Shown: piece by piece, positions 14,064 to 50,016 of the stretch
Position numbering within the stretch: the first letter of the stretch is position 1
Layout of the letters: each line of letters begins with the position of its first letter
Origin: an uncultured Armatimonadetes bacterium
GTDB taxonomy: Bacteria; Armatimonadota; Hebobacteria; Hebobacterales; Hebobacteraceae
Length of the DNA stretch: 64,000 bases
Direction: 5' to 3'
Assembly: GCA_963716175.1 (NCBI GenBank)
Contig: OY970296.1
Location: forward strand, 768,001 to 832,000
Made by a program: the position numbers and the translations under genes
The notes under the pieces: generated by a model
Database searches by the model: none
Seen by the model: only the letters and a program-made list of their open reading frames with translations
What the model was told of the DNA's origin: nothing

Positions 14064-14969
14064 TCACTTCCCGGCTGGCGTCACCGGGAGCTTGCCATCC
14101 GCAAGCTGCTTGCCGACGGCCAGCATCTCCTCCGCCCCTCCTATCACCAGATAGAGGTGGCCCGTGAACGGCCGCCGGTGGCCCTTGCTCGCATAGGGAG
14201 GACTCCACTCGACGTGCGGGAACCACTCGATCCCGCGGTACTCGCCTATGTGCTTCATCACGCTGGTGTCGGCCACCGGCATCACCCGGCCGAGACCCCG
14301 GCCGTTGGCCGGGTTGTAGACGCCGACAATGATCGATCCATGGTAGTTCAGCGACCCCGCGTCCTCCGGGTCTCCCTTCTCCTCCGGGAGCACGCTGTAG
14401 TACTGGTCGGGGTAGAGGACATGCCCCCGCACCCACTTCTCGGCCCCGTAGACAACCACCTTGCCGGTCGTGGTGCCACCGGGGGAGCCCCAGTCGACGA
14501 CGTTCACCCCGTACTCGAGGTAGTCCATCCTCAAGATGAGGCTATCGGCGTAGATGGTCACTTCCTCCACGGCCTGGTCCCCGTGGTAGGCCGTCGCCTT
14601 GGTCTTCGCCGGCGACTCCAGCCGCACCGTCATCCGATCCGGCCCGACGTGGGTCACCTCGGCCCTGGTGACCGGGCCCCGGCCCTCGTCCGCGCTGAGC
14701 CCCAGCTCATCCAGCATCGCCCCGGCCTGGTTCTCCTCCACTGCCTTGAGGACCAGCTCCTTGATGAAGGCCTCGCGCCCGCTTCCCTGCATCTCTGTCA
14801 CCGCGTAGCGGCAGCGGAGCTTGCTGTTCTCCAGCACCACCTGCATCCCGCCCAGGGGGTCGGGGGTGATGGTGATGCTCCCCCAAGCCGCGGCATAGGC
14901 CGGCAAGGCGCTCAGTCCGAGGATCACCAGGGCGAGCCCGGCTGCGGCCAGCCTCTCGATCATCTCCAT
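14064..14969 (-). CDS. Secreted hypothetical protein; IS110 inserted in its RBS
   Basis: AGGAG 7 nt before ATG (MEMIERLAAAGLALV signal peptide); co-oriented with the cluster. Confidence 0.75.
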   Translation of the reverse strand: MEMIERLAAAGLALVILGLSALPAYAAAWGSITITPDPLGGMQVVLENSKLRCRYAVTEMQGSGREAFIKELVLKAVEENQAGAMLDELGLSADEGRGPVTRAEVTHVGPDRMTVRLESPAKTKATAYHGDQAVEEVTIYADSLILRMDYLEYGVNVVDWGSPGGTTTGKVVVYGAEKWVRGHVLYPDQYYSVLPEEKGDPEDAGSLNYHGSIIVGVYNPANGRGLGRVMPVADTSVMKHIGEYRGIEWFPHVEWSPPYASKGHRRPFTGHLYLVIGGAEEMLAVGKQLADGKLPVTPAGK

Positions 14970-14989
14970 ACCCGTACTCCTATAATGCT

Positions 14990-15225
14990 GCAACTTGGAT
15001 ATCCGTACTGGTTTCACCAGTATGGAGTGGGTTATAGTCTCCGGGCCGGGGCGTCGGGCGCGAGGTCTTCATTTCAGTTACGGCGCGACCGAGAAGAGGA
15101 GAATGACCCCTCGGCGACCGGTCCGGAGCTTGGATTGCAACCTGCGGCACGACCGCGGAATTCAGGAGTCGAAGCGGGACCGGAGGCGACGAGGAGCTCC
15201 CGCGCTGGCGGCAGATCCATTGCCG
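14990..15225 (+). ncRNA. Putative bridge-RNA-like leader of IS110 copy 1
   Basis: About 250-nt noncoding leader after TATAAT; hairpin 15002-15026 and stem/internal-loop/stem 15118-15183. Confidence 0.6.
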
Positions 15226-15237
15226 AGGAGGTGGTGT

Positions 15238-16663
15238 ATGGCGGAAGCGAGGTTGTTGTGCGTGGGCATCGATGTCTCGTCGCGCTCCCTGGAGGTCGGC
15301 TTCTGCGATGGCAGCGGAGCGCCCATCGGCGGCGTGCAGTCCTTCCCCAACGACGCGACCGGCGCGGCCGCGCTCGGCGAGGCCGTGATGGTGATCGCAC
15401 GCGTGTGCGGTCGCGGCACCCAGGTGATGGCGGCGGTGGAGTCCACCGGCGAATATCATCGGGTGGCGGCGAAGGCGCTGCGGGCAGAGACGCGTCGGAC
15501 GATCCAGGTGCACGTGCTCAATCCCCGCGAGGTCAAGTGGTTCCGCAAGCTGGAGCTCAAGGACACCAAGACCGACCGGGTGGATGCCGAGCTGATCGCC
15601 CGATTCCTGGCGAAGATCCGCCCCCAGCCCCGCGCCCCCATGCCCGAGGGATTCGAAGCGCTCCAGGATGCCACTCGCACCCGGCGCCGCTGCGTGGAGG
15701 ATCGCACCTCGCTCAAGAATCGGCTCCACCGGCTGCTGCGCACTCACTTCCCCGGCTATCGGGAAACGCTGGGTGCCAAGTTCAGCGTCCGCACCCTGGT
15801 GGCGCTGGCCGCCTGCCCCTCGCCCCAGGAGCTGCTCCGGCGGGGTGAGGCTCGCCTGAGTGAGTTGCGCAACTCCGACGGCAAGCGTGTCGGAGCCGCC
15901 TTCGCCCGGAAACTGATCGCCCTGGCGAAAGCTGCCCCCGCGCCAACTGCCGATGATGGCGCGTCTCTCCATCCAGGACGCGGCCGTCCGCATCCTGCAA
16001 CTGAATCGTTTCCTTCACGGCATGGACGCAGCCGTCGCCCAGGAGCTGGAGCGGCTCTTCCCAGATACGGTTCTGGCTTCGGTGCCGGGCCTGGGCCCGG
16101 TCTCGGTGGCTTCCATCCTGGCCGAGACAGCCGACATCCGTCGCTTCCCGCACAAAGAGACTTTCGTGGGCTACTGTGGGCTCTATCCCATTGCCTGGGA
16201 GAGCGGAGACACCAAGCTGCGCTTCCGCATGACCCGCAAGGGCAACCGCATGCTGAAGATGACTCTGCTGGTGGCCTCGGCCGCCGCCCGCCAATACAAC
16301 CCGGCGATCCGCCACTTCTACGCCCGCCTGCGAGCCCGAGGCAAATCCAAGAAAGCAGCCGGAGGTGCCATCGCCCGAAAGATGGCTGAGATCGTCTGGG
16401 CCGTGCTCACCTTCAATCAACCTTGGTCGGAAGAGATCGCCCTGCGCGGAATCGCTCGGGGAGAAGAGATGGCCCAGACACCGAAGGGGGAGCGACGCCT
16501 CACTGGAGATGCCGCGGGTCAAGCCCCGATGCAATCGGGACGACCACTCAAGGCGGCGTCGAGGTCTCGCGCTCCCCAGCGTAATTCTACCATCAGCGCT
16601 GGGAAAAACAAGCCGCCACATCTCCAACTTACTCGCTATGCCAGAGGCACGATTACCCCTTGA
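15238..16663 (+). pseudogene. IS110 recombinase frameshifted by a 2-bp deletion near 15940
   Basis: GIDVS/VESTG/KTDRVDA DEDD residues and WESG serine; reads gcccccgcgccaac where copy 2 reads gcccccgcgcgccaac. Confidence 0.88.
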
Positions 16664-16927
16664 CATCAGTTATTGCATCTCCTCTCCCGCTCACGGTCTG
16701 TGCTCGACGAACAGCACCGGCCCCGGCCAGTTCACCTCCGCCGCGTGCTCCTCCGTGCTGGAGCAGAGATGGAAGGCGTTGTGCTCCCCAGAGACCCTAT
16801 CCGGGCACTCCTGGGCGGTTTCCTTCCTCGCTGAGTCGGGGCTGTCCTTGCCTGATGAGTGCCGTTTCGGGCTTCCTGCTTACTGCCGGATGCATGTCGC
16901 AGTGCCATCGGGCCCCATACCCGACAA

Positions 16928-16984
16928 GACCTCGGGCCGTGGCTCCAGCCAAGGCGGCAGCCTGAGTCGGGCGTGCCCGGGGAC
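16928..16984 (+). repeat. Dispersed imperfect-hairpin repeat copy
   Basis: cctcgggccgtggctccagccaaggcggcagcctgagtcgggcgtgcccgggg aligns with copies at 19630, 21345 and 33597. Confidence 0.65.
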
Positions 16985-17121
16985 TCTCCGTGCTCGCCGC
17001 GCAGCCCCTAGCGGTGCTGAGCCCAAACAGCCCCATCTCGGATGCACTGGGAATCGGGGTTCAGATCCCTTTTGGTTGGGAAGGTGCTGGTAGTCTGTAG
17101 AAGCGCAGCCGCGCTCGATGA

Positions 17122-17433
17122 TCACGCGCTAGGCCCGAACTCGCGTCTGACTTCGAAAACCACCGGAGTCTTCGGATCCGGGCAGGCATGGACTACCGCA
17201 TCGGCGTCTGCTGCCCAGCGGAAGCGCGCTTCGTTGTGGAGCGCATACACCTTGGGCATCAGGGAAGTCAGCGCCCCCAAGCAGATGGTCCCCTGTACGT
17301 TGACACACGCGTCGTTGACGCACTCGAACACGATCTGATCTCCGGGTTGGTGTACGCGACAGCCGTTGGATTCCCGTACGGCGACGATGATCCTCATCGG
17401 AGCAGGCCGCCTTTCCTCACCACTTGTACTCAT
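17122..17433 (-). CDS. TIGR04076-like small Cys-containing protein
   Basis: GC.VHQPGD.I...IC..AL..L.P....CPDP..PVVFEVRR pattern; AAGGA RBS. Confidence 0.75.
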   Translation of the reverse strand: MSTSGEERRPAPMRIIVAVRESNGCRVHQPGDQIVFECVNDACVNVQGTICLGALTSLMPKVYALHNEARFRWAADADAVVHACPDPKTPVVFEVRREFGPSA

Positions 17434-17805
17434 CGACGTTCCTTTCTCTCGTCTCGTATCTCGCGAGACCCTTGGAGTACGTGTCCGTGTCAAACGCCGA
17501 TGGGACACCCCACACCGGCTTCTGAGCTTGCATGGCAGGCGGAGTCGGTCTACCATATGAGACCTTTGGGCGGCACCTCCGAGCGCCCTACTCTGACTTC
17601 AAGTGGTACAGGAGCAGTGCCGGGCAAACAACTCCCCAAGGCTCTCAGGCCGGCTCCATGGGCGGTTGGCATGGACAGCCAGCGTCAGGTCACAGAGGAC
17701 GAGCGAACGCCCCTCAGCGTCCAGCTGCACGTTGTCGCGAGCCGGCCCCGCTCGAACGCCTCCGCGGTCGGCGTCTGATCTGTCAGCGTCACGGCCATCA
17801 CTTCC

Positions 17806-19294
17806 TCACTTGCCTTCCACGACCACGTGCAGCCGCGCGGTGGCCGTGACCTCTCCTTCGGTGTGCTCCACCCGCACGAGGTAGTGGCCGGGCTTGGCGT
17901 AACGATGCACCGTCGGCACGTAGCCATCCGGGGCCATCGCGTCACTCCCATCCGGCCTGACCGGGTTGCACGTCACCCTCACCGGAGGCGTCCCGTCGCC
18001 GAAGTCCCACGCCGCGGTGCCGTCCACCGCGTTGAACACCCGCACCAGGAACGTCACCGGATCACCCGGCTTGATGGCCAGCGTCGGCGCGTAGGTGGCA
18101 TGGATACCGGCCGGCATCTTGTCTTTCGCCGAATCGAACACCTGAACCACGGCGAAGTCGTAGTCCACGCGGCCGCTGGCATCGGAGACCTGCACAGTCT
18201 CGCTGTAGATGCCGGGTCGCGGCATACTTGCGCGTCACCTGCGCCCTGTCAAACGTGCTCCCGTCGCTGAGCGTCCATCGGTACGTTCGCGTCCCGTCCT
18301 GGGACCAGGAGCGGGAGGCGTCGAGCGCCACCGCCTGGCCTGGGGACACCAGCGTGTGCGGTCGCGCTACCGCCAGCACCGGGGGGTGTTGCGCGCGCCG
18401 GTAGGCCTCTATCAGGTACGCGTATCCCTCCTCAGCCCCCCACTTGCCGGAGGGCTGCCGGGCGAAGATGCCGTAGTGTAGGTGCGACCAGCCGCCGCTG
18501 TCACCCTCCTTGCCGAGGAGGCCGATCAGGTCGCCCTGGCGGAGGCGCGCCCCCATCTCTATGCCTGGCGCGAAGCTCTTCAGATGGCAGTACAAGTGCA
18601 TCCACCCGCGGTCATCGAGGACCACGATGCGTTCGTCCCGCGGGTCATACCACGACCCGACATCCTTCTGCTTCTCTTTCCCCTTCGCCACGATCACCCC
18701 ATCAGTCGCGGACACCACCTCGATCAGTCCCTCCGCGCCGCCGAGGTCGAGGCCGTCGTGATAGTAGATGCGCTCGCGGCTGATATCCGGGGTGACGTCC
18801 ACGTAGCAGGCCTCGTTCGCCATCTGCGTCATGCTCGCGAACCAGCGCTGCCGCGCGGGGTAGGTGAACGTGCCCGGCTCGGTCCAGGACGAGCCGGCGG
18901 GCCAGACGCGCAGGCGCGCATCCTTCTCCAACCCCCAGGAGTCGGAGCCGGTATTCCGGTAGTAGGCCTTGGTGATGGGGCAGTCTACCTGCACCTTCCC
19001 CACCGTCGTCGGCAGGTTGTAGTTGCCGCTGGCGAGCCACACCTCCTCCTCACCGATCCGCACCTTCACCTTCGCCGCGACCACCGCGTCCGACAGTGGG
19101 TTGGTGGTCTCGGCCAGCTCCAGCAACTGCACCCGCACCGTCTCGCCGTTGCTGAGCTTCACCTGCGCGGCCTCTCCCACGCGCAGATCCACCACGCGCC
19201 GCAGCGGCTCCGCCGGACGCGCCGCACCGTGCGAGAGCGTCGCTGCTAGGCCGAGGCATAGCCAGACGAACGTCAGAGAAACGGTCTGGTGCAC
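17806..19294 (-). pseudogene. Secreted M23-family peptidase with PKD domains, +1 frameshift near 18222
   Basis: YHDGLD, YCHL and SHLHY M23 motifs; a PKD domain is split between ORFs 18062-19294 and 17806-18225 (may be a sequencing indel). Confidence 0.8.
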
Positions 19295-19629
19295 CGTGAG
19301 CTTCCTCCGATCCCTACCGGTTCCACGCCAGGCGATGTGCTCCTATCGCTACATGTCGGGTGTCGGTTTTCGGGCGCGGCCCCGGCGAGACTGGAAGATG
19401 TCCCGCGACCGCATGGACGTCACAGGGCGTAGTGCCCAAAAACTCATCTGGTTCCCAGAACGCTCCTGCAGCTCCCATCGTGGTGTTCTCAGCGATCGCT
19501 GAGACTCCTGTGATGGAAGGCGCGGAGGAAGGGAGATGATGATTGGCTGGGGCTGAACTGGGCGGGCCTGCCCGTGATCGCCACCGTGGTGCGGGTGCTG
19601 TGCCATACCGGACGCAGACGCGAACGAAC

Positions 19630-19690
19630 CCTGGCAGTGACTCCCAGCCGAGGGGGTAGCCGGAGTCGGGAGTGGCCGGGAGTGCCAAGC
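19630..19690 (+). repeat. Dispersed imperfect-hairpin repeat copy
   Basis: gtgactcccagccgagggggtagccggagtcggg. Confidence 0.7.
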
Positions 19691-19924
19691 CGCGGTCTTC
19701 ACTGGGGCACGATATCGTGCGGAAGTAGCCGCCCCGGGCGAGCCCAGAACACGCCTAGGGCGGTCCTACGGACGCCTGCCACCCCCAGGCTGGTTCACGT
19801 AGGGCGCCGCCTAGGGCCGCCCCTTGCCTGATCCCGTGGTGATCCGGCGCCCATGGAGAGCAGGCCCGCAGGCGAAGAGATCGAGGCCAGGACGGCCAAG
19901 GGAAGGACGCACTGACTTAGCATT

Positions 19925-19980
19925 CTGGGTGGGTTGGTTCTGGACGCCCATGGTGGGTCAGTCTTCGATGCCGATCCGCG
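19925..19980 (+). mobile_element. IS21-family right-end remnant
   Basis: Tandem ggtgggtyrgt.yt.gaygcc.at units, resembling IS21 subterminal transposase-binding repeats. Confidence 0.5.
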
Positions 19981-20047
19981 ACCGCGAGAGGACGACCGCG
20001 TGGTGTCCAGAAACCACCTCAGGAGATTCACCGGGAGGAGCAGCACC

Positions 20048-21178
20048 ATGCAGCAGGCCGTATTCGGCATCATCGGGGCCGGACACATCGCCAGTAGTCA
20101 GCACCTACCCAATCTCACCCGCGCGCCGCACGTGCGGCTAAAGACGGTGTGCGATTTCGATCGCGCGAAGGTGGAGGTGGCGCAGGCAGCCTATGGGATT
20201 CCTCATGGCGTCACCGATATGGAGGAGGTGCTGGCCGACGATGAGATTCAGGCCGTGGTCGTCGCCACCGCGGAGGAGGCGCACGTGCCGCTCACGCTGG
20301 CGGCGCTGCAGGCGGGCAAGTCAGTGTACGTGGAGAAGCCCCTGGCCGACACGGCGGAAGCGTGCGAGGCGGTGGTCGAGGCGCAGCGCGCGTCGGGCAA
20401 GCTGGTAGCGGTGGGCTTCAACCGGCGCTTCGCCCCGGCCTACGTGCGCGCCAAGCAGCTCGCCCAGCAGTACGGGGGGATCTGGAACTTCCACTACCGG
20501 ATCGCGGACGAATACTGGCGGTGGGGCCGGGATCTCCTGCCGGGGACGCGAGTCATGCACGAGGTGTGTCATATCTTCGATATCCTTCGCTGGATGACCG
20601 GCCAGGAGGTGCAGTCGGTGTACTGCGTCTCTTCCCGCCCGGACGACGAGATCATCGCCATGCAGCTGAGTGGCGGATGTGTCGCCTCCATCATGGACAG
20701 CGGCTACGGGTCGATGGACATGCCCAAGGAGTATCTCGCCCTCATGGTGGAGCGCGGCGGCGTCACGGTGGAAGACTTCGTGGAACTGCGCTGCTTTGGT
20801 CGCGACACGGAACCGTGCGTGGAGCACTTCGCCGGGCACACGCACCCCAAGTCCGAGTTCGGCTATCGCCCGCTCTACGAGAAGCTTGGGAGAGAGGCGC
20901 TGTACGCGATGCGGCGAGCGGGGTGGGAGATACGAGAGCAGCTCGAGCGGCGGGAGTTGCAGGGGCCGCACGCGGCGGAGGCAGAGCGCTTCCTGGGCTC
21001 CGTCGCCTGGAACTACACCGGCGACAAGGGATGGCTGGCGGCGGTGGATCACTTCGCCTCCTGTGTCACCACCGGTGACCAGCCGGGAACGGCCGGCGCC
21101 GCGGACGGCCTGCAGGCGACGCGCCTGGCACTGGCGGCGATGCGGAGCCGGGAGACGGGAGAGGTGGTGCGGCTGTAG
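20048..21178 (+). CDS. Gfo/Idh/MocA family oxidoreductase
   Basis: GIIGAGHIA, VYVEKPLA, VGFNRRF, HEVCHIFD; GGAGGAG RBS. Confidence 0.93.
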   Translation: MQQAVFGIIGAGHIASSQHLPNLTRAPHVRLKTVCDFDRAKVEVAQAAYGIPHGVTDMEEVLADDEIQAVVVATAEEAHVPLTLAALQAGKSVYVEKPLADTAEACEAVVEAQRASGKLVAVGFNRRFAPAYVRAKQLAQQYGGIWNFHYRIADEYWRWGRDLLPGTRVMHEVCHIFDILRWMTGQEVQSVYCVSSRPDDEIIAMQLSGGCVASIMDSGYGSMDMPKEYLALMVERGGVTVEDFVELRCFGRDTEPCVEHFAGHTHPKSEFGYRPLYEKLGREALYAMRRAGWEIREQLERRELQGPHAAEAERFLGSVAWNYTGDKGWLAAVDHFASCVTTGDQPGTAGAADGLQATRLALAAMRSRETGEVVRL

Positions 21179-21282
21179 CGAAAGCCGACACAGGAGGTAG
21201 ATCCCCGTCGGGTGCACTCCAGTCCGGTGTAGGGCAGCGGCTAGGCCGACCCTCAGGTCGTTTTGTGCTTGCTAGATCGCGC

Positions 21283-21415
21283 TGGGACACCCCTGAGCGG
21301 CCTCTGAGCTTGCCTGCGGGCGAGGATCAGCCCTACACGCGGGCGACCCTCGGGCCGGTGCCTCCGAGCCGAGGGGTAGCCGGAGTCGGGGGTGCCCGAG
21401 GCCGTCGCCCAGGAG
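21283..21415 (+). repeat. Longest copy of the dispersed repeat; its 5' part recurs at 17501-17585
   Basis: tgggacacccc..cggcytctgagcttgc is shared with 17501; followed by the hairpin CCTCGGGC...GCCCGAGG. Confidence 0.7.
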
Positions 21416-21500
21416 CTTCGCCGGGGTGGCCGATGGCCCTGCTCGATAGCGGGACACCTGTGTTCCTGGGGGATGACTGCGGCCTGAGCGCGAGTGGAGC

Positions 21501-21660
21501 GATAGCTCAGATGGTAGAGCTTACAGCAGAGGCTAGCACACCTGAACTGAAGACGACGATCGGGTGCCGGGTTAGCTCAGGTGGTAGAGCTTACAGCAGA
21601 CGCTAGCATACCTGAACTGAAGACGACGATTGGGTGCCGGGTTAGCTCAGGTGGTAGAGC
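21501..21660 (+). repeat. 70-bp tandem repeat (about 2.3 units) including the tRNA-Phe 5' end
   Basis: 21501-21570 and 21571-21640 differ at 5 positions; TAGCTCAGRTGGTAGAGC occurs three times. Confidence 0.9.
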
Positions 21661-21711
21661 GCGGGACTGAAAATCCCGGCGTCCCCAGTTCGACTCTGGG
21701 ACCCGGCACCA
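21636..21711 (+). tRNA. tRNA-Phe (GAA)
   Basis: GCCGGGT/ACCCGGC acceptor stem, CTGAAAA anticodon loop, TTCGA T-loop, encoded CCA. Confidence 0.97.
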
Positions 21712-22207
21712 GCCGTCGCCCTTCTCGCGCTTCGGCTGCCACGGGCAACTGACAGCCACCGAGCACGCAACTGCCGCTCCTCCTCTGCCCCGCGAGACCT
21801 GGGTCTGTACCCGAGGTCGCAGGTTCGAACCGGGGGCGGGATTTGTACCCGATTCGTACTCTGAAAGGCTGCCCCTCGTGGCAGCGCGCTGGGTCTACGC
21901 CTCGGTAAAGCAGGGCGCAAGGGAAATGCGGCGGATAGGCCTCGCGGTGTAGGCCTGAGCCCCCTCGGCCCGCTCTCAGTCCGTATGATCTTACCCGTGC
22001 CGAAGACCGGGAAGCCTTATGCGCGCAGTCTGCATGTCAAGGCCAATTCTCTGATCTCTCCCGAAACTTACCAACCCGACCAATCTGACCAGAGAGACGG
22101 CTGTACCCCCTCGTCAGGCCTCTCCTTGCTGGCGGGAACTGCTGGAGGGAGAACGGTATGCCGCCATCTGCGAACTGGTGCGTGACGCCCGGGTAGACAA
22201 CTCCTAG

Positions 22208-22378
22208 GTCGCACGCCTGGTGCGGCTCACGTTCCTGCCACCCGACCTCATCGAGTCGATCCTGGACGGCACAGAACCCGACGGGCTGTCGCTTGAGAAG
22301 CTGTACCGGGTGCCGGTTGGGTGGGAGGAGCAGAGGAGGGCCTTCCAGAAGCCAGACGTCTATGGACTGGATTCGTAG
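22208..22378 (+). pseudogene. C-terminal remnant of a recombinase-associated protein (DUF2924/resolvase-type module)
   Basis: Translates to VARLVRLTFLPPDLIESILDGTEPDGLSLEKL..VPVGWEEQR; an in-frame stop lies just upstream. Confidence 0.6.
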
Positions 22379-26702: not shown

Positions 26703-26864
26703 CACGCCGCCCTCCAGCACGCGCGGTTCCGCCCAACCTTCGCCGCCACATAGCACCTGATGGCTTCCGCGCTCGGCTGCTACACGTGTGTCCGGGCCCA
26801 TAACACCGGTTCTGGGTTCACCTCAGCGTGGGCAAGACGACCTGGCGGATAGCCACCCCTTATC

Positions 26865-34894: not shown

Positions 34895-34896
34895 AC

Positions 34897-41825: not shown

Positions 41826-41908
41826 TCGGAGGTTGGCGCCGCTTGCTGAGCCCATACGACGCATCATGGGCTCAATGCGTCAGCACGGCGGCCCGTCCGA
41901 TCCACAGG

Positions 41909-44900
41909 CTAGAGCGACAGCTTGAACGCCCTCGCGATATACGCCGCCATCTGATCCCGCGTGCACACGTACTCGAGGTGGTACTCCCCGTCCGGGTAAC
42001 CCTGCACCACGCCGTGCGCAACGCAGTACTCGACGTGCTTGTAAGCCCAGAAGCTGGTAGCCACATCGGGGAAGGTGGGGGAGGTCGGCGGCATGTAGCT
42101 GGCCAAGCCGGCTTCTCCGGTGGGCGTCACCATGGCGCGGGCGATGAAAACCGCCATCTGGCCCCGGTCGAGTTCTACCGCAGGCGCGTAATTCCCGTTG
42201 GGATAGCCCTGCACAATGCCCTGCGCGAAGGCGTACTCCACATACCTGTAAGCCCAGTGGTCAGGCTGAACATCCGGGAAGGAGGCCTGGGCTGGGCCAG
42301 TCGGCACGTTGGCGTCGCCGGCAGCGAGCGCCCGAGAGATGTAGACGGCCATCTGGTCGCGGGTGACCGCTAGCTCGGGGTGATAGCTGCCATCGGGGTA
42401 GCCGGCGACGATCTCAGCGCGGGCGCAGGCATGGATGTAGTCCACGGCCCAATGCTCCCAGGGGACATCGGAGAACAAGGCCCACTCGGGCACGAGGTGC
42501 ACGATTTGGCTGTCATAGGCGTCTGCCACCCAGATGGAGCTGTCACCTGCATTGACAGCTACCGCTACCGGATAGTCAAACTGGAGATCAACCATGAGAG
42601 CAGACCCATCTGCAGCCAGGTGGGCCAACCAGCCCCACCCGTCCGTTACCCAGCAGGAACCGTCTGCAGGGTTCGCGGCCACCGCCGTGATATCCACAAG
42701 CCCAGCCGTACAGGACAGGGGCTCCCCTTCCTTGCTGATATGCGCCACCGCGCAGGAGTCGGCGATCCAGCACGAGCCGTCGGAGGTGTTGACGCCCACC
42801 CCGCCGCGCCCGGACGGGAAACCTCTCCAAAGCTCGGTGCCGTCGGCGGCCAGGTGGACAGCATAGTCATCATCAGGCCACGACGAGCCAGTGCCGACCC
42901 AGCAGGACCCATCGGAGGGGTCAGAGGATACTGCGACGGCGGCAAAGCCGCCATGCCGCCACACTTCACTGGCGTCAGAGCTGTAGTGCACAACGCGGTT
43001 CTCGTCCGAATAGGCTACCCAACACGAGCCATCAACCGGGCTTGCAGAGGCAGACGACGGAACCGTGTAGTCCCATTCAGGATGGGCCTCATAGGAGTTT
43101 CCCAGTTCCGCGCCATTCTCCGCAAAGTGGACAACCATGAATCCGCCGGAGTAGCCAATCGAAGTGTCGTAGAGGACCGACCCAGCCGCCCAGCAAGATC
43201 CATCCGTAGGGTCCACGGACACGTAGGCGCAATCGAACGACAAGATTGAGTCTTCCGGGAAGCTGTGTGTCCCTCTCCAGAGCACTCTACCGTCGCTGGC
43301 AAGATGCATGACCTCGAATCCGCAGGCAAGCCAGCAGCTTCCGTCAACAGGGTCAACCGACGCACTCGTGGCTCCGATCTCTTCCTCCCAGAGCAGGCCG
43401 CCATCGGCGGAGACGTGACTGACCTTGTTCGGATATCCGTAGAGGTTGGGGAAGGTTACCACCCAGCACGACCCATCCGACGAGTTCACGGACACTCCCA
43501 CGATCCCCTCGAAGTTGCCCCGCCACAGCTCAGTACCGTCTGCCGCGAAGTGGTAGAGCAGGCCATACCCGAGGGTCGGGCTCAAGCCGTAGTCGGCTAT
43601 CCAGCACGAACCGTCGGCCCCGTTGACTGCGAGATCCCTGACCTCAGACCAACCCTCCAGACTCCCTCGCCAAAGCTCCCGCCCGTCACCGGCCAAATGC
43701 ACAATCTGAGTAACGCTGTCGCGACCATCGGCAACCCAGACTGACCCGTCTCTGGAGTCGACCGCGATGGCGTGCGGCCAGTAGTTGAAGTTGCCGCCTC
43801 GCCAGATGGTCTGCCCGTCAGCCGCAAGATGCACGAGTCGGCAGTTGTCTGCGTCGGTGATCCAACAGGAGCCATCACGAGGATCAACTGCGGCCTCCGT
43901 CGGTGACAGGAATCCCTCGTGGTAGCGCACTAGCAGCGTCCCGTCGCTGCCAAACCGCACCGCGTTCTGAAGCCCGCCATCGGCTGCCCAACACGAGCCA
44001 TCCGTGGGGTCGGCCGAGACGGCGCGCAGGCCCGAGTTCAGGAAGGGATCGGAGAAGTAGGAGGCATCCAGAACAAGATTCCCGTCGCTGTCGAGGCGTT
44101 GGATAGCCCCGCTCGGTGGCGCTGCCAGCCAGCAGGATCCGTCACTCGCGTCCACTGACAGGGAGGATACATCGCGTAGGAATGCCGCTGTGCTCACCCA
44201 CCGCGTCGAGCCGTCGGAGGCAAGACAGGTGATGGCCTCACTGGTCCTGTCGGCGACTCGGCACGAACCATCCCGCGGGTCAACGGACACCGAGATCGGC
44301 CCGCGGAACCCGTCGTAGTAGTCCAGCCCTTCACTGAAGCTGGCATCCCAGCGACAGATATACTGGGGGCTCATTTCGGCCACCCAGCAGGAGCTATCAC
44401 GCGGGTCAACGCACACTGAGATCGGGGCGCCAAAGCCCCTCACCAAGTCCACGCTCCCGAGTGCCAGCAGAGCAACGCTGTTGTGCCCGCTGTCGGCGAC
44501 CCAGCAACGCCCGTTATTGGGGTCCACTGAGAGGGACTGCGTCCCGTAGCCCATGGACCCCCAGAGATGCCAGGTGCCCATGAGCGTGCCGTCCCGTGAC
44601 ACCCGCTCTACGCACTCGCCCTCCCATTCGAATATAGAGCCTATATAGCATGAGCGGTCCGCCGGGTATACGCCTAATCCCGTCGCTCCCCATGCTGGCA
44701 CAGTGAGCAGTTCCTCCCCTTGGGGGGAGAGAAGAACGACTTGGTCATGCTCTGGATCGGCGACCCAGCAGGAGCCGTCACTGGGATCTACGGCGACCGC
44801 CGAGGCGGAAGCGAACTCATCTCCTCGCCAGAGCACGGTGCCCTCCTTCGAGAGGTGGAGTACTGCGCCGTTCGATTCCCCGGCTGCCAGGTCGCCGCCG

Positions 44901-45383
44901 GTCCCCGAGTCCTCACTGCCCCAGCCGGGATCGGCCACCCAACACGATCCGTCTCTGGGATCGACGGACAGTCGCCAGGGCGTGGACAGCCCCCTCCACT
45001 CCTGGAGCATGGCGCCGTCTGCAGCCAGGCGGACCACTCGGCCGTTGAACGTGTCCGCGACCCAGCATGACCCGTCCGTCGGGTCGGCCGCCACAGCCTG
45101 GGGGCTGAGGAAACCATTGCTCTGCGTGACTACCGCGCCTTCGGGCCGTGAAGTGCATCACGCTGCTTCCCGTGGCCGCCCAGCAGGAGCCATCCCGGGG
45201 ATCCACGGAGACTGACCACGGGGTACCGAAGGGGCTTCGCCACACCTCCAGGGCGCGCTCATCGTTGGCGAGTGCAATAGGGGACAGGGCCAGGAACAGC
45301 GCGATGGCAAGGGACAGGGAAATCCCGAAACCCGCGAGTCTCCTATAGCCCTGCCGTGAGACCGGAATTGCGGCCTGCCCCAT
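41909..45383 (-). CDS. Secreted beta-propeller repeat protein with three C-terminal SLH domains; +1 frameshift near 45144
   Basis: About 21 VDPxDGSCW repeats; FSDV..HWA..GYPDG.Y.P..VTRDQMA three times; the signal peptide lies in ORF 44913-45383. Confidence 0.85.
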
Positions 45384-45759
45384 TGGTCACCTCTCTGTTC
45401 CGCCGAGAACCGTCGTCCCGCAGTAGCGCTAGGATTATACCAGACCGTTGGCATTGGGTGTCTAGGCCTGGCTCAATCCGAAGGCGCGCTTCCCTCGGAA
45501 CCCAACGGCCACGTCGTGATCTCGGAATGGACGCGTCGGAGCGTAGCGATGCTGGCTGACGGCGCAGTGGTAGCTCTTCTCGCAGTGGTGACCGCGGCCG
45601 CACCATACTCGGCCTCTGCCCGCCCAGGCCGGGAGCACCAATTGGACCGGTGGAGTGCCGTAAGAGTGCCGCTCCCCCTACCGCCACCCCGCTGCCGAGC
45701 GCGGCCCTTAAGCGGACGTGGGCCGCCGTTCTGGGCAGGAACGGGCAGCAGGCGCAGCA

Positions 45760-46221
45760 CTAGGCGCTTTCGCCCGAGACCTGGCCGAGGTCCAGATGGG
45801 TCCGTCGGCTCTCGGGGCAAGGCGGCGGGCCGTTTTCCGCCGATTCGGCCCCAAGCGCCGCCTCCAGCCCGATCTCCCCCGCCAGCGCCGCCCGCAGCGC
45901 CGCGATCTGCTCGCTCTGGGCCGCGTCTGTGAGCTCCAATTCGTGCCTGGGCTCCCGCTGGCCCAGGATCTGCTTGCCCAGCCAGATCTGCATCACCACG
46001 TTGCCCTTGCTGGCTGACTGCCACTGCAGCCGGCGCAAGCTCATTCGGCCCGCCTCCCGCCCCTTTTCTATCACCCCAACTAACTCCGCCTGGCGCCGCT
46101 TGCGCTTGCGGAAGCCTTCGGGTGTGAAGCCGAGCACGGAGGCGATCTCCGCATCCGTGCACTGGATGCGAGCCAGGTCCTCCACCAGCTTCAGGTCAAC
46201 GGGCTTTGCGGGTCTAGCCAT
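45760..46221 (-). CDS. Phage small-terminase-like HTH protein
   Basis: VEDLARIQCTDAEIASVLG...SLRRLQW..A.KGNVVMQIWLGKQ.LGQ. Confidence 0.65.
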   Translation of the reverse strand: MARPAKPVDLKLVEDLARIQCTDAEIASVLGFTPEGFRKRKRRQAELVGVIEKGREAGRMSLRRLQWQSASKGNVVMQIWLGKQILGQREPRHELELTDAAQSEQIAALRAALAGEIGLEAALGAESAENGPPPCPESRRTHLDLGQVSGESA

Positions 46222-46430
46222 CTGCTCTCACCGCCGCTCGGTTGCAGTCATCTGGGCCGTCCTGCGTTGCCCTCACCATGAGACAGTCAGCATAGTCTGG
46301 CCCCAGCAGGCATTCGGTGGGCATTCCCCGCCGCACGTAGCTGAGCTGCCAGCCCTCGCGCTCATAGCAAGCCACCTCGTAGGCCCACACGCGAATCCAC
46401 TCCGTGGCAGCATCGCGGGCCACACCCACC

Positions 46431-47735
46431 TCACTCGACACGGACGGCCTCCTGCCCGGTGAAGGACTCCCACCGGGAGAGGATGACATCGCAGTATCTG
46501 GCATCCAGGTCGAAGCCGAAACAGCGCCGGCCAGTCCGTTCAGCGGCGATGATGGCGGTCCCCGATCCCAGGAAGGCGTCAACAACCAACTGCCCCAGTT
46601 CGGTGGCATTGGCGATGGTGCGTTCGATCAAGGGCACGGGTTTCATGGTAGGGTGCAGGTCGTTGGACAGGGGCTTATCGTGTTCCCACACCGTGCGCTC
46701 GTTGGTGGGGCCGTGCCAGCGCGGGGCCTGGCCTTGCTTGTGGGCGTAGAAGCAGGGCTCGTACCAGTGCTTGTACTGGGCGAACAGTGCGCCCGCGCCG
46801 TTGTTCTTCACCCACACCAGGAGGTTCCGTTCCTGCCAGCCAGTCTCAGCCATGCAGTCCAGCACATCCCGCAGATGCGAGCTCGCGAACCAGAGGTAGA
46901 GGGGCGCCTTGTCATCTGAGTGCTGATGGGCCAGACCCAGGCTGGCGGTGAGCAGGTGGCGATATTCGTCATCGGTGAGGTCGTCCCAGTAGGCGTCGCC
47001 TTCTTGTCCCTGGGCGCCTCGGCGCTTGGCCCCTATGCGCTCCTCCTGAGCAGCTCTTCCGCCGAGGTAGTTGATGGCGTAAGGTGGGTCCGTGATGATG
47101 GCGTGAGCAGTTTCGCCGGCCATCAACCGCACCCAATTCGCAGGGTCGGTGGCGTCACCGCACAGCAGCCGATGCCGGCCTAGCTGCCAGAGCTCTCCTG
47201 GCTGCACCCGCGTCGGCCCCTGCTGCCGCTCGGCCTCCGCCATTGCCCGCTCGGCGTCGAAGGTCTCCTCCTGGCCCTGCTTCTCCCCCGCCTCCAGCCG
47301 CAGCAGCAACTCATTGAGATCATCCTGCCCCCAGCCCGCGGCAGTGAGCTGATCCTGCGCCTCCAGGTCGCGAAGCAGGGTTGCCAGGGCAGCCTCATCA
47401 TCCTCGGCCAGATCGCTGGCGCGGTTGTCGATGGCGAGGAACGCCTCCGGGTAGGGGCCGTCGTAGACGTGGCAGGCGATCTCGGCCCAGCCTTCGGCCC
47501 GCGCCGCCTCCACCAGACCATGACCCGCGAGGATGGTGCCATCCGGTGTGATCACCACCGGCTTCTGCTGGCCATGGATGCGTAGCGACTCTCGCAGGAT
47601 GGCGAGCTGGTGCTCTGGATGGCGGCGGTAGTTGCGCGGGTGGGGGAGCAAGCTGCTGATGGCCCGCCTCTCAATGGTCAGGTGAAGGTCCGTGCTCGCG
47701 GCGCCTTCTCTCGTTTCGGCCTGCTGTGATGTCAT
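46431..47735 (-). CDS. ParB-like N-domain plus beta-class DNA methyltransferase (phage type)
   Basis: HPRNYRRH..ILAGHG..AA; ITDPPY, HPTMKP, DAFLGSGT. Confidence 0.92.
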   Translation of the reverse strand: MTSQQAETREGAASTDLHLTIERRAISSLLPHPRNYRRHPEHQLAILRESLRIHGQQKPVVITPDGTILAGHGLVEAARAEGWAEIACHVYDGPYPEAFLAIDNRASDLAEDDEAALATLLRDLEAQDQLTAAGWGQDDLNELLLRLEAGEKQGQEETFDAERAMAEAERQQGPTRVQPGELWQLGRHRLLCGDATDPANWVRLMAGETAHAIITDPPYAINYLGGRAAQEERIGAKRRGAQGQEGDAYWDDLTDDEYRHLLTASLGLAHQHSDDKAPLYLWFASSHLRDVLDCMAETGWQERNLLVWVKNNGAGALFAQYKHWYEPCFYAHKQGQAPRWHGPTNERTVWEHDKPLSNDLHPTMKPVPLIERTIANATELGQLVVDAFLGSGTAIIAAERTGRRCFGFDLDARYCDVILSRWESFTGQEAVRVE

Positions 47736-47756
47736 CTCAGTGACTCCTATAATGCT

Positions 47757-47992
47757 GCAACTTGGATATCCGTACTGGTTTCACCAGTATGGAGTGGGTT
47801 ATAGTCTCCGGGCCGGGGCGTCGGGCGCGAGGTCTTCATTTCAGTTACGGCGCGACCGAGAAGAGGAGAATGACCCCTCGGCGACCGGTCCGGAGCTTGG
47901 ATTGCAACCTGCGGCACGACCGCGCAATTCAGGAGTCGAAGCGGGACCGGAGGCGACGAGGAGCTCCCGCGCTGGCGGCAGATCCATTGCCG
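47757..47992 (+). ncRNA. Putative bridge-RNA-like leader of IS110 copy 2
   Basis: Nearly identical structured leader to copy 1. Confidence 0.6.
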
Positions 47993-48004
47993 AGGAGGTG
48001 GTGT

Positions 48005-49432
48005 ATGGCGGAAGCGAGGTTGTTGTGCGTGGGCATCGATGTCTCGTCGCGCTCCCTGGAGGTCGGCTTCTGCGATGGCAGCGGAGCGCCCATCGGCGGC
48101 GTGCAGTCCTTCCCCAACGACGCGACCGGCGCGGCCGCGCTCGGCGAGGCCGTGATGGTGATCGCACGCGCGTGCGGTCGCGGCACCCAGGTGATGGCGG
48201 CGGTGGAGTCCACCGGCGAATATCATCGGGTGGCGGCGAAGGCGCTGCGGGCAGAGACGCGTCGGACGATCCAGGTGCACGTGCTCAATCCCCGCGAGGT
48301 CAAGTGGTTCCGCAAGCTGGAGCTCAAGGACACCAAGACCGACCGGGTGGATGCCGAGCTGATCGCCCGATTCCTGGCGAAGATCCGCCCCCAGCCCCGC
48401 GCCCCCATGCCCGAGGGATTCGAAGCGCTCCAGGATGCCACTCGCACCCGGCGCCGCTGCGTGGAGGATCGCACCTCGCTCAAGAATCGGCTCCACCGGC
48501 TGCTGCGCACTCACTTCCCCGGCTATCGGGAAACGCTGGGTGCCAAGTTCAGCGTCCGCACCCTGGTGGCGCTGGCCGCCTGCCCCTCGCCCCAGGAGCT
48601 GCTCCGGCGGGGTGAGGCTCGCCTGAGTGAGTTGCGCAACTCCGACGGCAAGCGTGTCGGAGCCGCCTTCGCCCGGAAACTGATCGCCCTGGCGAAAGCT
48701 GCCCCCGCGCGCCAACTGCCGATGATGGCGCGTCTCTCCATCCAGGACGCGGCCGTCCGCATCCTGCAACTGAATCGTTTCCTTCACGGCATGGACGCAG
48801 CCGTCGCCCAGGAGCTGGAGCGGCTCTTCCCAGATACGGTTCTGGCTTCGGTGCCGGGCCTGGGCCCGGTCTCGGTGGCTTCCATCCTGGCCGAGACAGC
48901 CGACATCCGTCGCTTCCCGCACAAAGAGACTTTCGTGGGCTACTGTGGGCTCTATCCCATTGCCTGGGAGAGCGGAGACACCAAGCTGCGCTTCCGCATG
49001 ACCCGCAAGGGCAACCGCATGCTGAAGATGACTCTGCTGGTGGCCTGGGCCGCCGCCCGCCAATACAACCCGGCGATCCGCCACTTCTACGCCCGCCTGC
49101 GAGCCCGAGGCAAATCCAAGAAAGCAGCCGGAGGTGCCATCGCCCGAAAGATGGCTGAGATCGTCTGGGCCGTGCTCACCTTCAATCAACCTTGGTCGGA
49201 AGAGATCGCCCTGCGCGGAATCGCTCGGGGAGAAGAGATGGCCCAGACACCGAAGGGGGAGCGACGCCTCACTGGAGATGCCGCGGGTCAAGCCCCGATG
49301 CAATCGGGACGACCACTCAAGGCGGCGTCGAGGTCTCGCGCTCCCCAGCGTAATTCTACCATCAGCGCTGGGAAAAACAAGCCGCCACATCTCCAACTTA
49401 CTCGCTATGCCAGAGGCACGATTACCCCTTGA
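48005..49432 (+). CDS. IS110-family DEDD recombinase/transposase (475 aa)
   Basis: GIDVS, VESTG, KTDRVDA, SVPGLG, WESG, KGNR; GAGGAGG RBS. Confidence 0.95.
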   Translation: MAEARLLCVGIDVSSRSLEVGFCDGSGAPIGGVQSFPNDATGAAALGEAVMVIARACGRGTQVMAAVESTGEYHRVAAKALRAETRRTIQVHVLNPREVKWFRKLELKDTKTDRVDAELIARFLAKIRPQPRAPMPEGFEALQDATRTRRRCVEDRTSLKNRLHRLLRTHFPGYRETLGAKFSVRTLVALAACPSPQELLRRGEARLSELRNSDGKRVGAAFARKLIALAKAAPARQLPMMARLSIQDAAVRILQLNRFLHGMDAAVAQELERLFPDTVLASVPGLGPVSVASILAETADIRRFPHKETFVGYCGLYPIAWESGDTKLRFRMTRKGNRMLKMTLLVAWAAARQYNPAIRHFYARLRARGKSKKAAGGAIARKMAEIVWAVLTFNQPWSEEIALRGIARGEEMAQTPKGERRLTGDAAGQAPMQSGRPLKAASRSRAPQRNSTISAGKNKPPHLQLTRYARGTITP

Positions 49433-49434
49433 CA

Positions 49435-50016
49435 TCAGTTATTGCATCTCCTCTCTCGAATCTGCGACGCGGCCGGCAGGCACGTCGGGCAGCGAAAGTC
49501 CAGGTCCTGGGCGGCGCACCGCAGCGCCAGCCCGGCGATCACCATCACATCGGCGCACTTCGGGCGGGGCGCGATGTAGGCGGGACGCTCCCCCTCCGGG
49601 TAGGAGAGCCATTCATGGGCGCAGCGGTAGAGGTCGACGTGCCGGTAGCCGCCCGAGATGTCAGCGTCCCACTTCGCACCGCGCACCGCGAGCAGCTCAT
49701 CCAGCACTGGCCGCAGCGCATTCACCGCCGCCCGGTAGGAGTGCACATCGGCCCAGACAGCGCAGTCCAACGCTCTCAGCAGGGCCCCGCGCAGCGGTTC
49801 GGCCGCCGGCGCAATGTGCATCTGCCGGACGTGCTCTGCGATCACCTGAGGGCCGGTAAGATCGAAGGCCTCGGCCTTCGGTCCATAGCTGCCGACCAGC
49901 GCCAGCATCAGGCAGACCCACTCCTTCACGCCAGGAAGCGCGCCGCCCCGCCGGCGCACTAGCTCGCGCACCTCCTGTCCCAGTGCCGCGATCTCGTGCT
50001 GCAGATCACTGCGCAC
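49435..50016 (-). CDS. Hypothetical protein, paralog of 50006-50806
   Basis: Shared EIAAL..EVRELVR.RG..LP and APAAE.LR; last codons replaced by the IS110 end. Confidence 0.7.
   Translation of the reverse strand: MRSDLQHEIAALGQEVRELVRRRGGALPGVKEWVCLMLALVGSYGPKAEAFDLTGPQVIAEHVRQMHIAPAAEPLRGALLRALDCAVWADVHSYRAAVNALRPVLDELLAVRGAKWDADISGGYRHVDLYRCAHEWLSYPEGERPAYIAPRPKCADVMVIAGLALRCAAQDLDFRCPTCLPAASQIRERRCNN

What the first reader, a model, noticed from the sequence alone, without database searches (positions are those of the whole stretch)
14960..49460. IS110 element that appears to target Shine-Dalgarno sequences
Seen: removing each IS copy restores minus-strand empty sites gcggGAGAGGAGTacgggtATG (gene ending 14064) and ttcgaGAGAGGAGTcactgagATG (methylase starting 47735). 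The shared 9-mer GAGAGGAGT is the ribosome-binding site in both. Both IS copies are antiparallel to the target gene. The duplicated core is the SD itself (AGGAG), so the downstream gene keeps its RBS. For copy 2 the upstream gene changes only its last residues (..ERSH* becomes ..ERRCNN*). Known: IS110 recombinases are RNA-guided, and some target REP or attC repeats. Inference: this element uses the SD as an abundant target that avoids breaking CDSs but can uncouple operons. This rests on only two insertions.
Basis: partly seen in the sequence, partly recalled or inferred. Interest (0 to 1): 0.85.

Follow-up and report, generated by a model that had tools for sequence, protein, structure and literature searches.

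The report
Insertion sequence targeting ribosome-binding sites
A small mobile DNA element in this bacterium inserts, apparently guided by its own RNA, between the ribosome-binding site and the start codon of genes; the mycobacterial element IS900 is already known to do this, so it is a new example, not a new principle.

Summary
The genome has 4 near-identical copies of a 1.7-kb IS110-family element. All 4 sit antiparallel to a gene, with the insertion point inside its Shine-Dalgarno (SD) sequence and the ATG 6-8 nt away. Only 9% of AGGAG motifs in this genome have an ATG 4-9 nt downstream. The 3 closest metagenomic relatives with a readable left flank do the same.

The 5' untranslated region folds into a two-arm bridge RNA supported by covariation. 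Its guide segments match each element's own flanks in permutation tests. The right target guide, GAAGAGGAG, is itself SD-like. The left guide, UCAUUUCAGUUAC, reaches across the spacer to the start codon.

The principle is not new. IS900 and IS901, also IS110 family, are reported to insert between SD and start codon, with target motif CATGNNNNNNTCTCCTT.

One side finding: an antisense ORF spans the whole element, as hed does in IS900. It starts behind the host SD and stops on the regenerated SD.

Verdict: new member of a known kind.

The parts
14977..16680 (+). IS copy 1, from the left core CT (14977-14978) to the right core CT (16679-16680). Its transposase is frameshifted by a 2-bp deletion near 15938/15939.
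47744..49449 (+). IS copy 2, intact, from the left core CT (47744-47745) to the right core CT (49448-49449).
48005..49432 (+). Recombinase (transposase) gene, 475 aa. It has the DEDD_Tnp_IS110 and Transposase_20 domains. The C-terminal tail is conserved in relatives to about residue 447.
47812..47979 (+). Predicted bridge RNA, A3 columns 78-245: a basal stem carrying a target-binding arm and a donor-binding arm.
   Evidence: the folding energy alone is not significant (z = -1.14)
47835..47848 (+). Left target guide region, UUCAUUUCAGUUAC. It has the same sense as the left flank, including CAT, the complement of the gene's ATG.
47858..47871 (+). Right target guide GAGAAGAGGAG, complementary to core + right flank CTCCTCTTC.., followed by the handshake nucleotides AAU.
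47899..47910 (+). Left donor guide region, GGAUUGCAACCU. AUUGCA has the same sense as the right-end sequence ATTGCA(T).
47924..47938 (+). Right donor guide ..CAGGAG, complementary to CT+CCT of the left end, plus the handshake guide UCG, complementary to the last bases of the left target flank.
49429..49434 (+). TTGACA in the right end. In a circular junction it would lie 17 nt upstream of the TATAAT of the left end.
   Evidence: read from the sequence; no promoter-like site in the integrated copy
47748..47753 (+). TATAAT in the left end, the -10 half of the junction promoter.
47747..49435 (-). Antisense ORF of 562 codons spanning the whole element. It starts 12 nt after the host SD, behind a 2-codon mini-ORF, and its TAG overlaps the regenerated SD.
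46431..47735 (-). Target gene of copy 2, a DNA methylase. Its ATG lies 8 nt from the core.
14064..14969 (-). Target gene of copy 1, 301 aa with no Pfam family. Its ATG lies 7 nt from the core, and a second in-frame ATG lies 13 nt away.
49435..50016 (-). ORF upstream of the methylase. Its last codons now run into the right end of the IS.

Best explanation
This is an active or recently active IS110-family insertion sequence of the IS110 subgroup, with its guide RNA encoded in the left end upstream of the recombinase gene. It has 4 copies in this genome, 3 of them intact.

Its bridge RNA is programmed for a translation-initiation region. The right target guide, GAAGAGGAG, is itself an SD-like sequence. 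It pairs with the strand that carries CT|CCTCTTC, the complement of a gene's SD. The left target guide, UCAUUUCAGUUAC, pairs with the other strand across the spacer and the ATG. The ideal target therefore reads, in the sense of the gene, as SD + about 8 nt + ATG.

Recombination at the core CT puts the element between the SD and the ATG in one orientation only, with the recombinase antiparallel to the gene. The left end of the element begins with CCT, like the target's right side, so the gene keeps an AGGAG in front of its ATG.

A TTGACA-17 nt-TATAAT promoter exists only across the joined ends of the excised circle. That would restrict guide RNA and recombinase expression to the circular form.

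Shown here: copy number, junctions, protein domains, the covariation-supported RNA fold, and the guide-flank matches. Inferred: RNA-guided recombination itself, the CT core, the circle promoter, and any effect on host gene expression.
For: - **Copies and positions.** The genome has 4 full-length copies, all with an ATG 6-8 nt from the core on the opposite strand. The background rate is 9.1% of 15,196 AGGAG motifs.
- **Target genes are real.** Copy 2 hits N6_N4_Mtase. Copy 4 hits Isochorismatase, with the domain starting at residue 10. L030 hits PBP, L033 hits Com_YlbF from residue 15, and L041 hits GCV_H.
- **Relatives.** Of 15 sites with at least 15 nt of left flank, 11 have CAT 5-10 nt from the core. 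This includes 7 of 7 in the element's own clade of 78% or more protein identity.
- **Protein.** It has PF01548 and PF02371. It aligns to the bridge recombinases IS621 (8wt6) and ISCro4 (9t56), with the acidic residues and the ESG serine conserved.
- **RNA structure.** On 15 aligned elements, 94.2% of cells are paired, 14 pairs change on both sides, and 0 of 500 shuffles reach this. With partners slid by 1-3 columns, only 34-41% of cells pair.
- **Left guide versus own left flank.** The summed score is 99 against a null of 64 +/- 4.5; 0 of 20,000 permutations reach it.
- **Right guide.** It is complementary to core + right flank for 4-8 contiguous nt in 15 of 15 pairs. At positions +6 to +10 there are 33 of 75 matches against a null of 21.3; 3 of 20,000 permutations reach this.
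- **Handshake guide.** It matches the last flank base in 14 of 17 sites; 0 of 20,000 permutations reach this.
- **Linked change in one relative.** L035 has CTCTT at the left end, and its donor guide reads AAGAG instead of AGGAG.
- **Fit to the published mechanism.** The layout of guides and handshake guides follows the IS621 scheme (PMC11208158, passages).
- **Family hallmarks.** There are no terminal inverted repeats: 9 of 40 in-register identities. The right-end TTGACA and left-end TATAAT would be 17 nt apart in a circle.
Against: - There is no experiment, and no empty site or circle junction was seen. The contigs of 4 runs show only occupied junctions.
- A simple ungapped complementarity score ranks only copy 2 high, 21st of 68,746 CTCC sites. 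Copies 1, 3 and 4 rank 374th, 1,474th and 11,733rd. Many better-matching gene starts are unoccupied.
- The distance between the left-flank match and the core varies from -1 to -11 nt. A rigid guide-DNA duplex does not explain this.
- 4 of the 15 sites have no start codon nearby (L034, L036, L037, L043), and 2 of the 11 CAT sites are doubtful starts (L035, L042).
- The folding energy of the single RNA is not unusual: z = -1.14, with 22 of 200 shuffles folding at least as well.
- The related elements share ancestry, so the permutation tests overstate independence.
Confidence: 0.85

Rival explanations
1. Survivor bias only. The element inserts at any CTCCT(C)-like sequence, and only copies that fall outside coding sequence, just upstream of genes, persist. 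The start-codon association would then be selection after insertion, not targeting.
For: The strongest invariant part of all sites is CTCC(T). The complementarity ranking of copies 3 and 4 is poor.
Against: The left guide region contains CAU and matches each element's own flank, including CAT: TCATGTCAGTT in L033, CATTTCGG in L031, TCATCTCAGT in copy 2. Orientation is fixed in 4 of 4 copies. Cutting a gene off from its promoter is not an obviously harmless position. Only 9% of AGGAG motifs lie next to an ATG, yet no copy sits at any of the many other non-coding or gene-end motifs.
Confidence: 0.07
2. The element aims at translation-initiation regions in order to express its own antisense gene from host signals. 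This is the 'hed' (host expression dependent) idea proposed for IS900. The antisense protein would be the point of the targeting.
For: An antisense frame is open across the whole element in 5 of 5 full-length elements that sit at gene starts: own, L030, L031, L033 and L040. It is broken in 6 of 6 that do not sit at confirmed gene starts: L034-L038 and L043 (L035 has only the doubtful CAT). Its ATG lies 12 nt behind the host SD. My rough estimate of the chance of such openness is 0.004 for the own type and 0.0002 for L040. IS900 has an analogous ORF (PMC8141618, passage).
Against: The frame is the exact reverse complement of the recombinase codons. This is the frame that stays open most easily in GC-rich genes: 7.6% of 367 comparable host frames have no TTA, CTA or TCA codon. 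The 5-versus-6 split amounts to about two lineages against two. No function or product of hed appears in the passages I read.
Confidence: 0.12
3. The recombinase protein, not an RNA, recognises the target, and the matches between the 5' UTR and the flanks are side effects of shared ancestry.
For: No RNA was observed, and no RNA run was listed for this locus. The folding energy is not significant.
Against: Element-specific changes occur together in guide and flank: GAGGAG with CTCCTC, AAGGAG with CTCCTT, CCGGAG with CTCCGG. The handshake nucleotide is U, G or C opposite A, C or G in the flank. The protein is homologous to experimentally RNA-guided recombinases.
Confidence: 0.04

Closest known systems
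IS900 and IS901 of Mycobacterium avium (IS110 family)
   Same: They insert between the Shine-Dalgarno sequence and the start codon (PMC2942039, passage citing Doran 1997 and Inglis 2003). The IS900 target motif is CATGNNNNNNTCTCCTT (PMC8141618, passage), against CAT-N5-7-(A)CTCCTC here. IS900 also has an ORF on the strand opposite the transposase that spans the whole element ('hed'). The title of Doran 1997, as cited, states that IS900 targets translation initiation signals.
   Different: This element comes from an unnamed 66% GC genome found with freshwater-sediment runs. Similarity to the IS900 transposase could not be tested, because no IS900 sequence was within reach. Here the target is traced to predicted bridge-RNA guides; my two searches found no paper doing this for IS900. 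In IS900 the antisense ORF is said to lack its own start codon, whereas here the right end supplies an ATG. I did not read Doran 1997 or Inglis 2003. The supplements of PMC8141618 (motif figure, hed map) were closed.
IS621 and ISCro4 bridge recombinases with their bridge RNA
   Same: The DEDD RuvC-like domain and the Tnp domain with the ESG serine. The guide RNA is encoded in the left end. There are two internal loops, with left guides of the same sense as the left halves and right guides complementary to the right halves. Handshake guides, a CT core and a promoter rebuilt at the circle junction are also shared (PMC11208158, passages).
   Different: Only the Tnp domain aligns well (E = 1e-15 to 3e-17). 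The recombinase here has an extra conserved C-terminal tail. The two RNA arms sit on a common long-range basal stem. The left target guide match is longer, up to 11 nt, and its register to the core varies. The target is a translation-initiation region; IS621 targets REP elements (PMC1525189, passage).
IS1111-subgroup elements with seekRNA
   Same: RNA-guided, site-specific IS110-family elements (this is recalled; only a review listing was seen).
   Different: As I recall, their guide RNA lies downstream of the recombinase gene and their targets are other repeats. Here the structured, covarying RNA lies upstream.

Membership tests
IS110 family (bridge recombinase elements) | Recombinase with an N-terminal DEDD RuvC-like domain and a C-terminal Tnp domain | tested here: met
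   PF01548 E = 5e-29 (residues 9-172) and PF02371 E = 4e-20 (residues 278-362)
IS110 family (bridge recombinase elements) | Catalytic D, E, D, D and the serine of the Tnp domain | tested here: met
   The alignment to IS621 (8wt6) pairs E68 with the E of ..IEATG.. and D113 and D116 with the ktDtvDa motif. S323 (wESGdt) pairs with the yESGss serine. D12 lies in the GIDVS motif, N-terminal to the aligned stretch, and is invariant in relatives. That this serine is S241 rests on my count plus an assumed 2-residue offset of the PDB chain.
IS110 family (bridge recombinase elements) | No terminal inverted repeats, and no target duplication beyond a short core | tested here: met
   9 of 40 in-register identities between the ends, longest shared run 5 nt. 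Copy 4 shares only CTCC at its two junctions.
IS110 family (bridge recombinase elements) | [quoted passage not shown] | tested here: inconclusive
   TTGACA in the right end and TATAAT in the left end would be 17 nt apart once joined (read). Relatives have the same layout with TATAGT. No circle junction was observed, and there is no promoter-like site in the integrated copy.
IS110 family (bridge recombinase elements) | Bridge RNA with target-binding and donor-binding loops whose guides covary with target and donor | tested here: met
   Structure. Guide-flank tests. Donor-side linked change in L035. There is no Rfam family for it. The RNA itself was not observed.
IS900-type elements that target translation-initiation signals | Orientation-specific insertion between the ribosome-binding site and the start codon, into CAT(G)-spacer-CTCC-like sites | tested here: met
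   4 of 4 genomic copies and 7 of 7 sites in the element's own clade. The IS900 motif comes from PMC8141618.
IS900-type elements that target translation-initiation signals | Element-spanning ORF on the strand opposite the transposase (hed) | tested here: met
   562-codon ORF at 47747-49435 on the minus strand. It is open in 5 of 5 full-length elements at gene starts.
IS900-type elements that target translation-initiation signals | Transposase falls in the same clade as IS900, IS901, IS902 and IS116 | not testable with these tools
   No IS900 sequence was available in the collections I could reach, and names go no further than 'IS110 family transposase'.

The most novel reading that the evidence does not exclude
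Elements of this type may be built as inserts that do not silence the gene behind them. The guide RNA carries an image of a canonical ribosome-binding site. The right end places a mini-ORF and an ATG directly behind the captured host SD. An antisense reading frame that spans the whole element would keep ribosomes on the host read-through transcript, which could prevent Rho-dependent termination inside the 1.7-kb insert. Its stop codon overlaps the regenerated SD (UAGGAG) 5-10 nt before the host ATG, so the host gene could be translationally re-coupled. Thousands of gene starts would then be near-neutral landing sites. The long-unexplained 'hed' ORF of IS900 would be an anti-polarity device rather than a protein-coding gene in the usual sense.
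Probability: 0.2. Interest if true: 0.65.

Novelty: new member of a known kind. Interest (0 to 1): 0.4.

Why it matters
It adds a clean, multi-copy example from an uncultured sediment bacterium of an IS110 element that uses translation-initiation regions as landing sites. It also links that behaviour, described for IS900 in 1997, to the bridge-RNA mechanism described in 2024: the guides read as SD + spacer + ATG. This gives a concrete, testable natural guide set. It also yields a small comparative series in which close relatives have re-aimed the same RNA at other sequences. The conserved antisense frame with its start and stop placement suggests a testable idea about how such insertions limit damage to the host gene. 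None of this overturns current understanding.

Tried and rejected
- **Threonine nucleophile.** Most relatives have RMTRKGN where IS621 has RMSKAG. Counting residues in the IS621 alignment places the catalytic serine in the ESG motif, which is conserved here. I dropped the idea.
- **Rfam.** Nothing real matched the element. The only match at E up to 1 was a spurious GRIK4 element at E = 0.99. Nothing matched at gathering threshold on 5 relatives' loci.
- **Genome-contig scan with the single protein.** It gave only 16 distant Treponema and Fibrobacteraceae loci at 23-30% identity. I did not use them.
- **Genome searches.** A search of 401 genomes of the same phylum found the protein only in G000, G010 and G013. 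The 61-genome search gave the same result.
- **Sequencing runs.** No RNA holder was listed. Contigs of X1-X4 gave no joint across the element, so no empty site was recovered.
- **Complementarity ranking.** A simple ungapped score does not single out the occupied sites, apart from copy 2.
- **Promoter scan of the integrated copy.** 0 promoter-like sites were found, so no outward promoter is proposed.
- **Single-sequence folding energy.** z = -1.14, which is not informative.
- **Literature.** 'bridge RNA' + 'IS900' found 0 papers. 'IS110' + 'bridge RNA' + 'Shine-Dalgarno' found 1 unrelated preprint. PMC4607514 and PMC5681481 held nothing on IS900 targets.
Full report
**1. What is in the sequence**

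The window holds two copies of one element, at 14976-16686 and 47743-49455. They differ by three substitutions and a 2-bp deletion in copy 1 that frameshifts its recombinase gene.

The whole genome is one contig of 4.56 Mb with 66% GC. It holds four full-length copies, plus one unrelated 32-nt match. The four copies differ at no more than seven positions in all.

Written in the orientation of the recombinase gene, the junctions are as follows:

| Copy | Left flank before CTCCT | After the right-end CTCC(T) |
|---|---|---|
| 1 | CAT acccgt A | CTCccgc |
| 2 | CAT ctcagtg A | CTCtcga |
| 3 | CAT ctcagc | Cacccg |
| 4 | CAT tgctg A | CTCTTGCC (only CTCC is shared) |

In all four, the CAT is the ATG of an ORF on the other strand:
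- Copy 1: a 301-aa ORF with no Pfam family.
- Copy 2: a 434-aa DNA methylase.
- Copy 3: a 255-aa ORF with no Pfam family.
- Copy 4: a 180-aa isochorismatase-family protein whose domain starts at residue 10.

**2. Is this more than chance?**

In this genome, 1,378 of 15,196 AGGAG motifs (9.1%) have an ATG 4-9 nt downstream. Only 769 (5.1%) also open an ORF of at least 100 aa. Four of four by chance would be about 7e-5. The flanks differ, so the four copies are separate insertions. Contigs of public runs carry the junctions of copies 1 and 3.

**3. What the element is**

The 475-aa protein has the two Pfam domains of IS110 transposases. It aligns to the structurally solved bridge recombinases IS621 and ISCro4, and the acidic residues and the ESG serine are conserved. 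The ends are not inverted repeats.

The right end holds TTGACA and the left end TATAAT. Once the ends are joined through one copy of the core, these hexamers would be 17 nt apart. The integrated copy has no promoter-like site on either strand. This is the layout described for IS621 (PMC11208158, passages).

**4. Relatives**

Two genomes of the same family, G010 and G013, carry 66-71% identical proteins. One scan of metagenome contigs gave 14 loci at 48-91% identity and one at 26% that I did not use. A 401-genome sample of the phylum added nothing.

Fifteen sites have at least 15 nt of left flank: the 4 own copies plus L030, L031, L033-L037 and L040-L043. I dropped the following:
- L032 (10 nt of flank), L038 (2 nt) and L024 (0 nt), because the flank is too short.
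- L023 and L039, which have no left end.
- L026, which has a right end only.

Eleven of the 15 sites have CAT 5-10 nt left of the core.
- Nine look like true starts. Pfam supports copies 2 and 4, L030, L033 and L041. For copies 1 and 3, L031 and L040 the support is only a long ORF or a signal-peptide-like or Rossmann-like N-terminus, by my own reading.
- Two are doubtful. In L035 the methylase domain begins at residue 159. In L042 the ORF is 79 aa with no family.
- Four have no start codon within 16 nt: L034, L036, L037 and L043.

In the element's own clade (78% identity or more) the count is 7 of 7.

**5. The guide RNA**

I aligned the region from the left end to the recombinase start codon for fifteen elements. 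The consensus fold has a basal stem carrying two arms, each with an internal loop.

On that fold, 94.2% of cells are paired and 14 pairs change on both sides. None of 500 shuffles reaches this, and structures slid by 1-3 columns pair only 34-41% of cells. The folding energy of the single sequence is unremarkable (z = -1.14).

I read the loops by the IS621 scheme. In that scheme, left guides have the sense of the left halves, right guides are complementary to the right halves, and a handshake guide follows each right guide. The fit is as follows.

- **Right target guide.** Here it is GAGAAGAGGAG. It is complementary to core plus right flank for 4-8 contiguous nt in 15 of 15 pairs, and it changes together with the flank. 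GAGGAG goes with CTCCTC, AAGGAG with CTCCTT, CCGGAG with CTCCGG, and GAUGAGGAG with CTCCTCAT. Beyond the shared CTCCT there are 33 of 75 matches against a null of 21.3; 3 of 20,000 permutations reach this.
- **Left target guide region.** Here it is UUCAUUUCAGUUAC. It matches each element's own left flank, for example TCATGTCAGTT in L033, CATTTCGG in L031, TCATCTCAGT in copy 2 and GCTCGTA.CG in L037. The summed score is 99 against a null of 64 +/- 4.5; 0 of 20,000 permutations reach it.
- **Handshake position.** The three bases after the right donor guide are complementary to the last base of the left target flank in 14 of 17 sites, using U, G or C as needed. None of 20,000 permutations reaches this.
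- **Donor side.** AUUGCA has the sense of the right-end ATTGCA(T), and ..AGGAG is complementary to CT+CCT of the left end. L035, whose left end reads CTCTT, has AAGAG in that guide.

In relatives, the left target guide ends in ..CU exactly where the flank meets the first CT of CTCCT. So the crossover core is most likely that CT. The further CCT is shared because the element's left end and the target's right side both begin with CCT. That is why the gene keeps an AGGAG.

**6. What follows**

In the sense of the target gene, the ideal target of this element reads as an SD (GAGGAG), about 8 nt, then ATG. The start codon is thus part of the predicted RNA-specified target and not only a neighbour of it.

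Some relatives have re-aimed the same RNA. L036, L037, L038 and L024 have no CAU in the left guide, and their sites are not at gene starts.

Weak points:
- An ungapped complementarity score ranks copy 2 21st of 68,746 CTCC sites. Copies 1, 3 and 4 rank only 374th, 1,474th and 11,733rd. Many better-matching gene starts are empty.
- The distance from the left match to the core varies between sites of one and the same element.
- No empty site, circle or RNA was observed.

**7. Comparison with what is known**

[quoted passage not shown] A 2021 genome study gives the IS900 target motif as CATGNNNNNNTCTCCTT. It also describes an ORF on the strand opposite the transposase, hed, that spans the whole of IS900 (PMC8141618, passages). 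I saw Doran 1997 and Inglis 2003 only as citations. I recall an older form of the consensus, CATGN(4-6)*CNCCTT, but it comes from no call. The supplementary figures of PMC8141618 on the motif and on hed were closed.

So SD targeting by an IS110-family element in one fixed orientation is established knowledge, and the target here is nearly the same sequence. In the library I found no paper that links IS900-type targeting to bridge-RNA guides. 'bridge RNA' + 'IS900' gave 0 papers. 'IS110' + 'bridge RNA' + 'Shine-Dalgarno' gave one unrelated preprint. That is a statement about those two searches only.

**8. A side finding**

The minus strand of the intact copy has a 562-codon ORF at 47747-49435 that spans the element. 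The same frame is open end to end in 5 of 5 full-length elements that sit at gene starts (own, L030, L031, L033, L040). It is broken in 6 of 6 that do not sit at confirmed gene starts (L034-L038, L043; L035 has only the doubtful CAT).

In all five, the order on the antisense strand is:
- the host SD and the core;
- ATG CAA TAA;
- three bases;
- ATG and the long frame;
- TTA TAG GAG (in L033 an in-frame TAA ends the frame 7 codons earlier);
- 5-10 nt, then the host ATG.

The frame is the exact reverse complement of the recombinase codons, which is the frame that stays open most easily in GC-rich genes. Even so, only 7.6% of 367 comparable host frames lack TTA, CTA and TCA codons. With the non-coding parts included, my rough chance estimates are 0.004 for the own type and 0.0002 for L040. 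For L040 these use this host's codon usage as a stand-in. The 5-versus-6 split is in effect about two lineages against two.

I offer, as inference only, that this frame keeps ribosomes on the host read-through transcript and re-couples the host gene.

**9. Verdict**

The finding is a new member of a known kind, with modest added value from the guide-level explanation and the antisense-frame architecture.

Noticed in passing
window 47747-49435 (-); also L030, L031, L033, L040: An antisense ORF spans the element. It begins with a 2-codon mini-ORF plus an ATG right behind the host SD, and its TAG overlaps the regenerated SD. It is open in 5 of 5 full-length elements at gene starts and broken in 6 of 6 others. 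It resembles the 'hed' ORF described for IS900.
   Followed up: partly
L034, L036, L037, L038 (65% identity clade); L037:1863-1901 and 3656-3694: These relatives sit at sites with no start codon, and their left flanks resemble one another. In L037 the element lies between the arms of a 39-nt inverted repeat that is 90% complementary. L038 has a similar right flank. The target may be a small palindromic repeat element.
   Followed up: partly
window 1703-2716: A tandem array of 8 copies with a 102-nt period and 63-81% identity to the reference copy. The period is a multiple of three, so it may be a repeat protein.
   Followed up: no
window 48005-49432, residues 330-337: Most relatives read RMTRKGN where IS621 reads RMSKAG. 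I first took this for a threonine in place of the catalytic serine. The alignment shows that the catalytic serine lies in the conserved ESG motif upstream.
   Followed up: yes
window 49196-49432 (recombinase residues about 398-475): A C-terminal tail beyond the part that aligns to IS621 is conserved in relatives to about residue 447 (GERRLTGDAAGQ.., KAASRSRAP). Its role is unknown.
   Followed up: no
L023 (G013:C193): A degenerate copy. No left end was found, and an internal deletion removes most of the donor-binding arm of the RNA. The recombinase frame is still open.
   Followed up: partly
window 47744-47747 with 47997-48000 (A3 columns 1-4 and 263-266): The consensus fold pairs the left-end CUCC with the GGAG in front of the recombinase start codon in all 15 sequences. 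This may be spurious, because a transcript from the junction promoter would start downstream of CUCC.
   Followed up: no
window 15157-15160 (copy 1) versus 47924-47927 (copy 2): Copy 1 carries the frameshift and also a C-to-G change in the donor-binding arm of the RNA, at IS position 182. It is therefore probably decaying.
   Followed up: no
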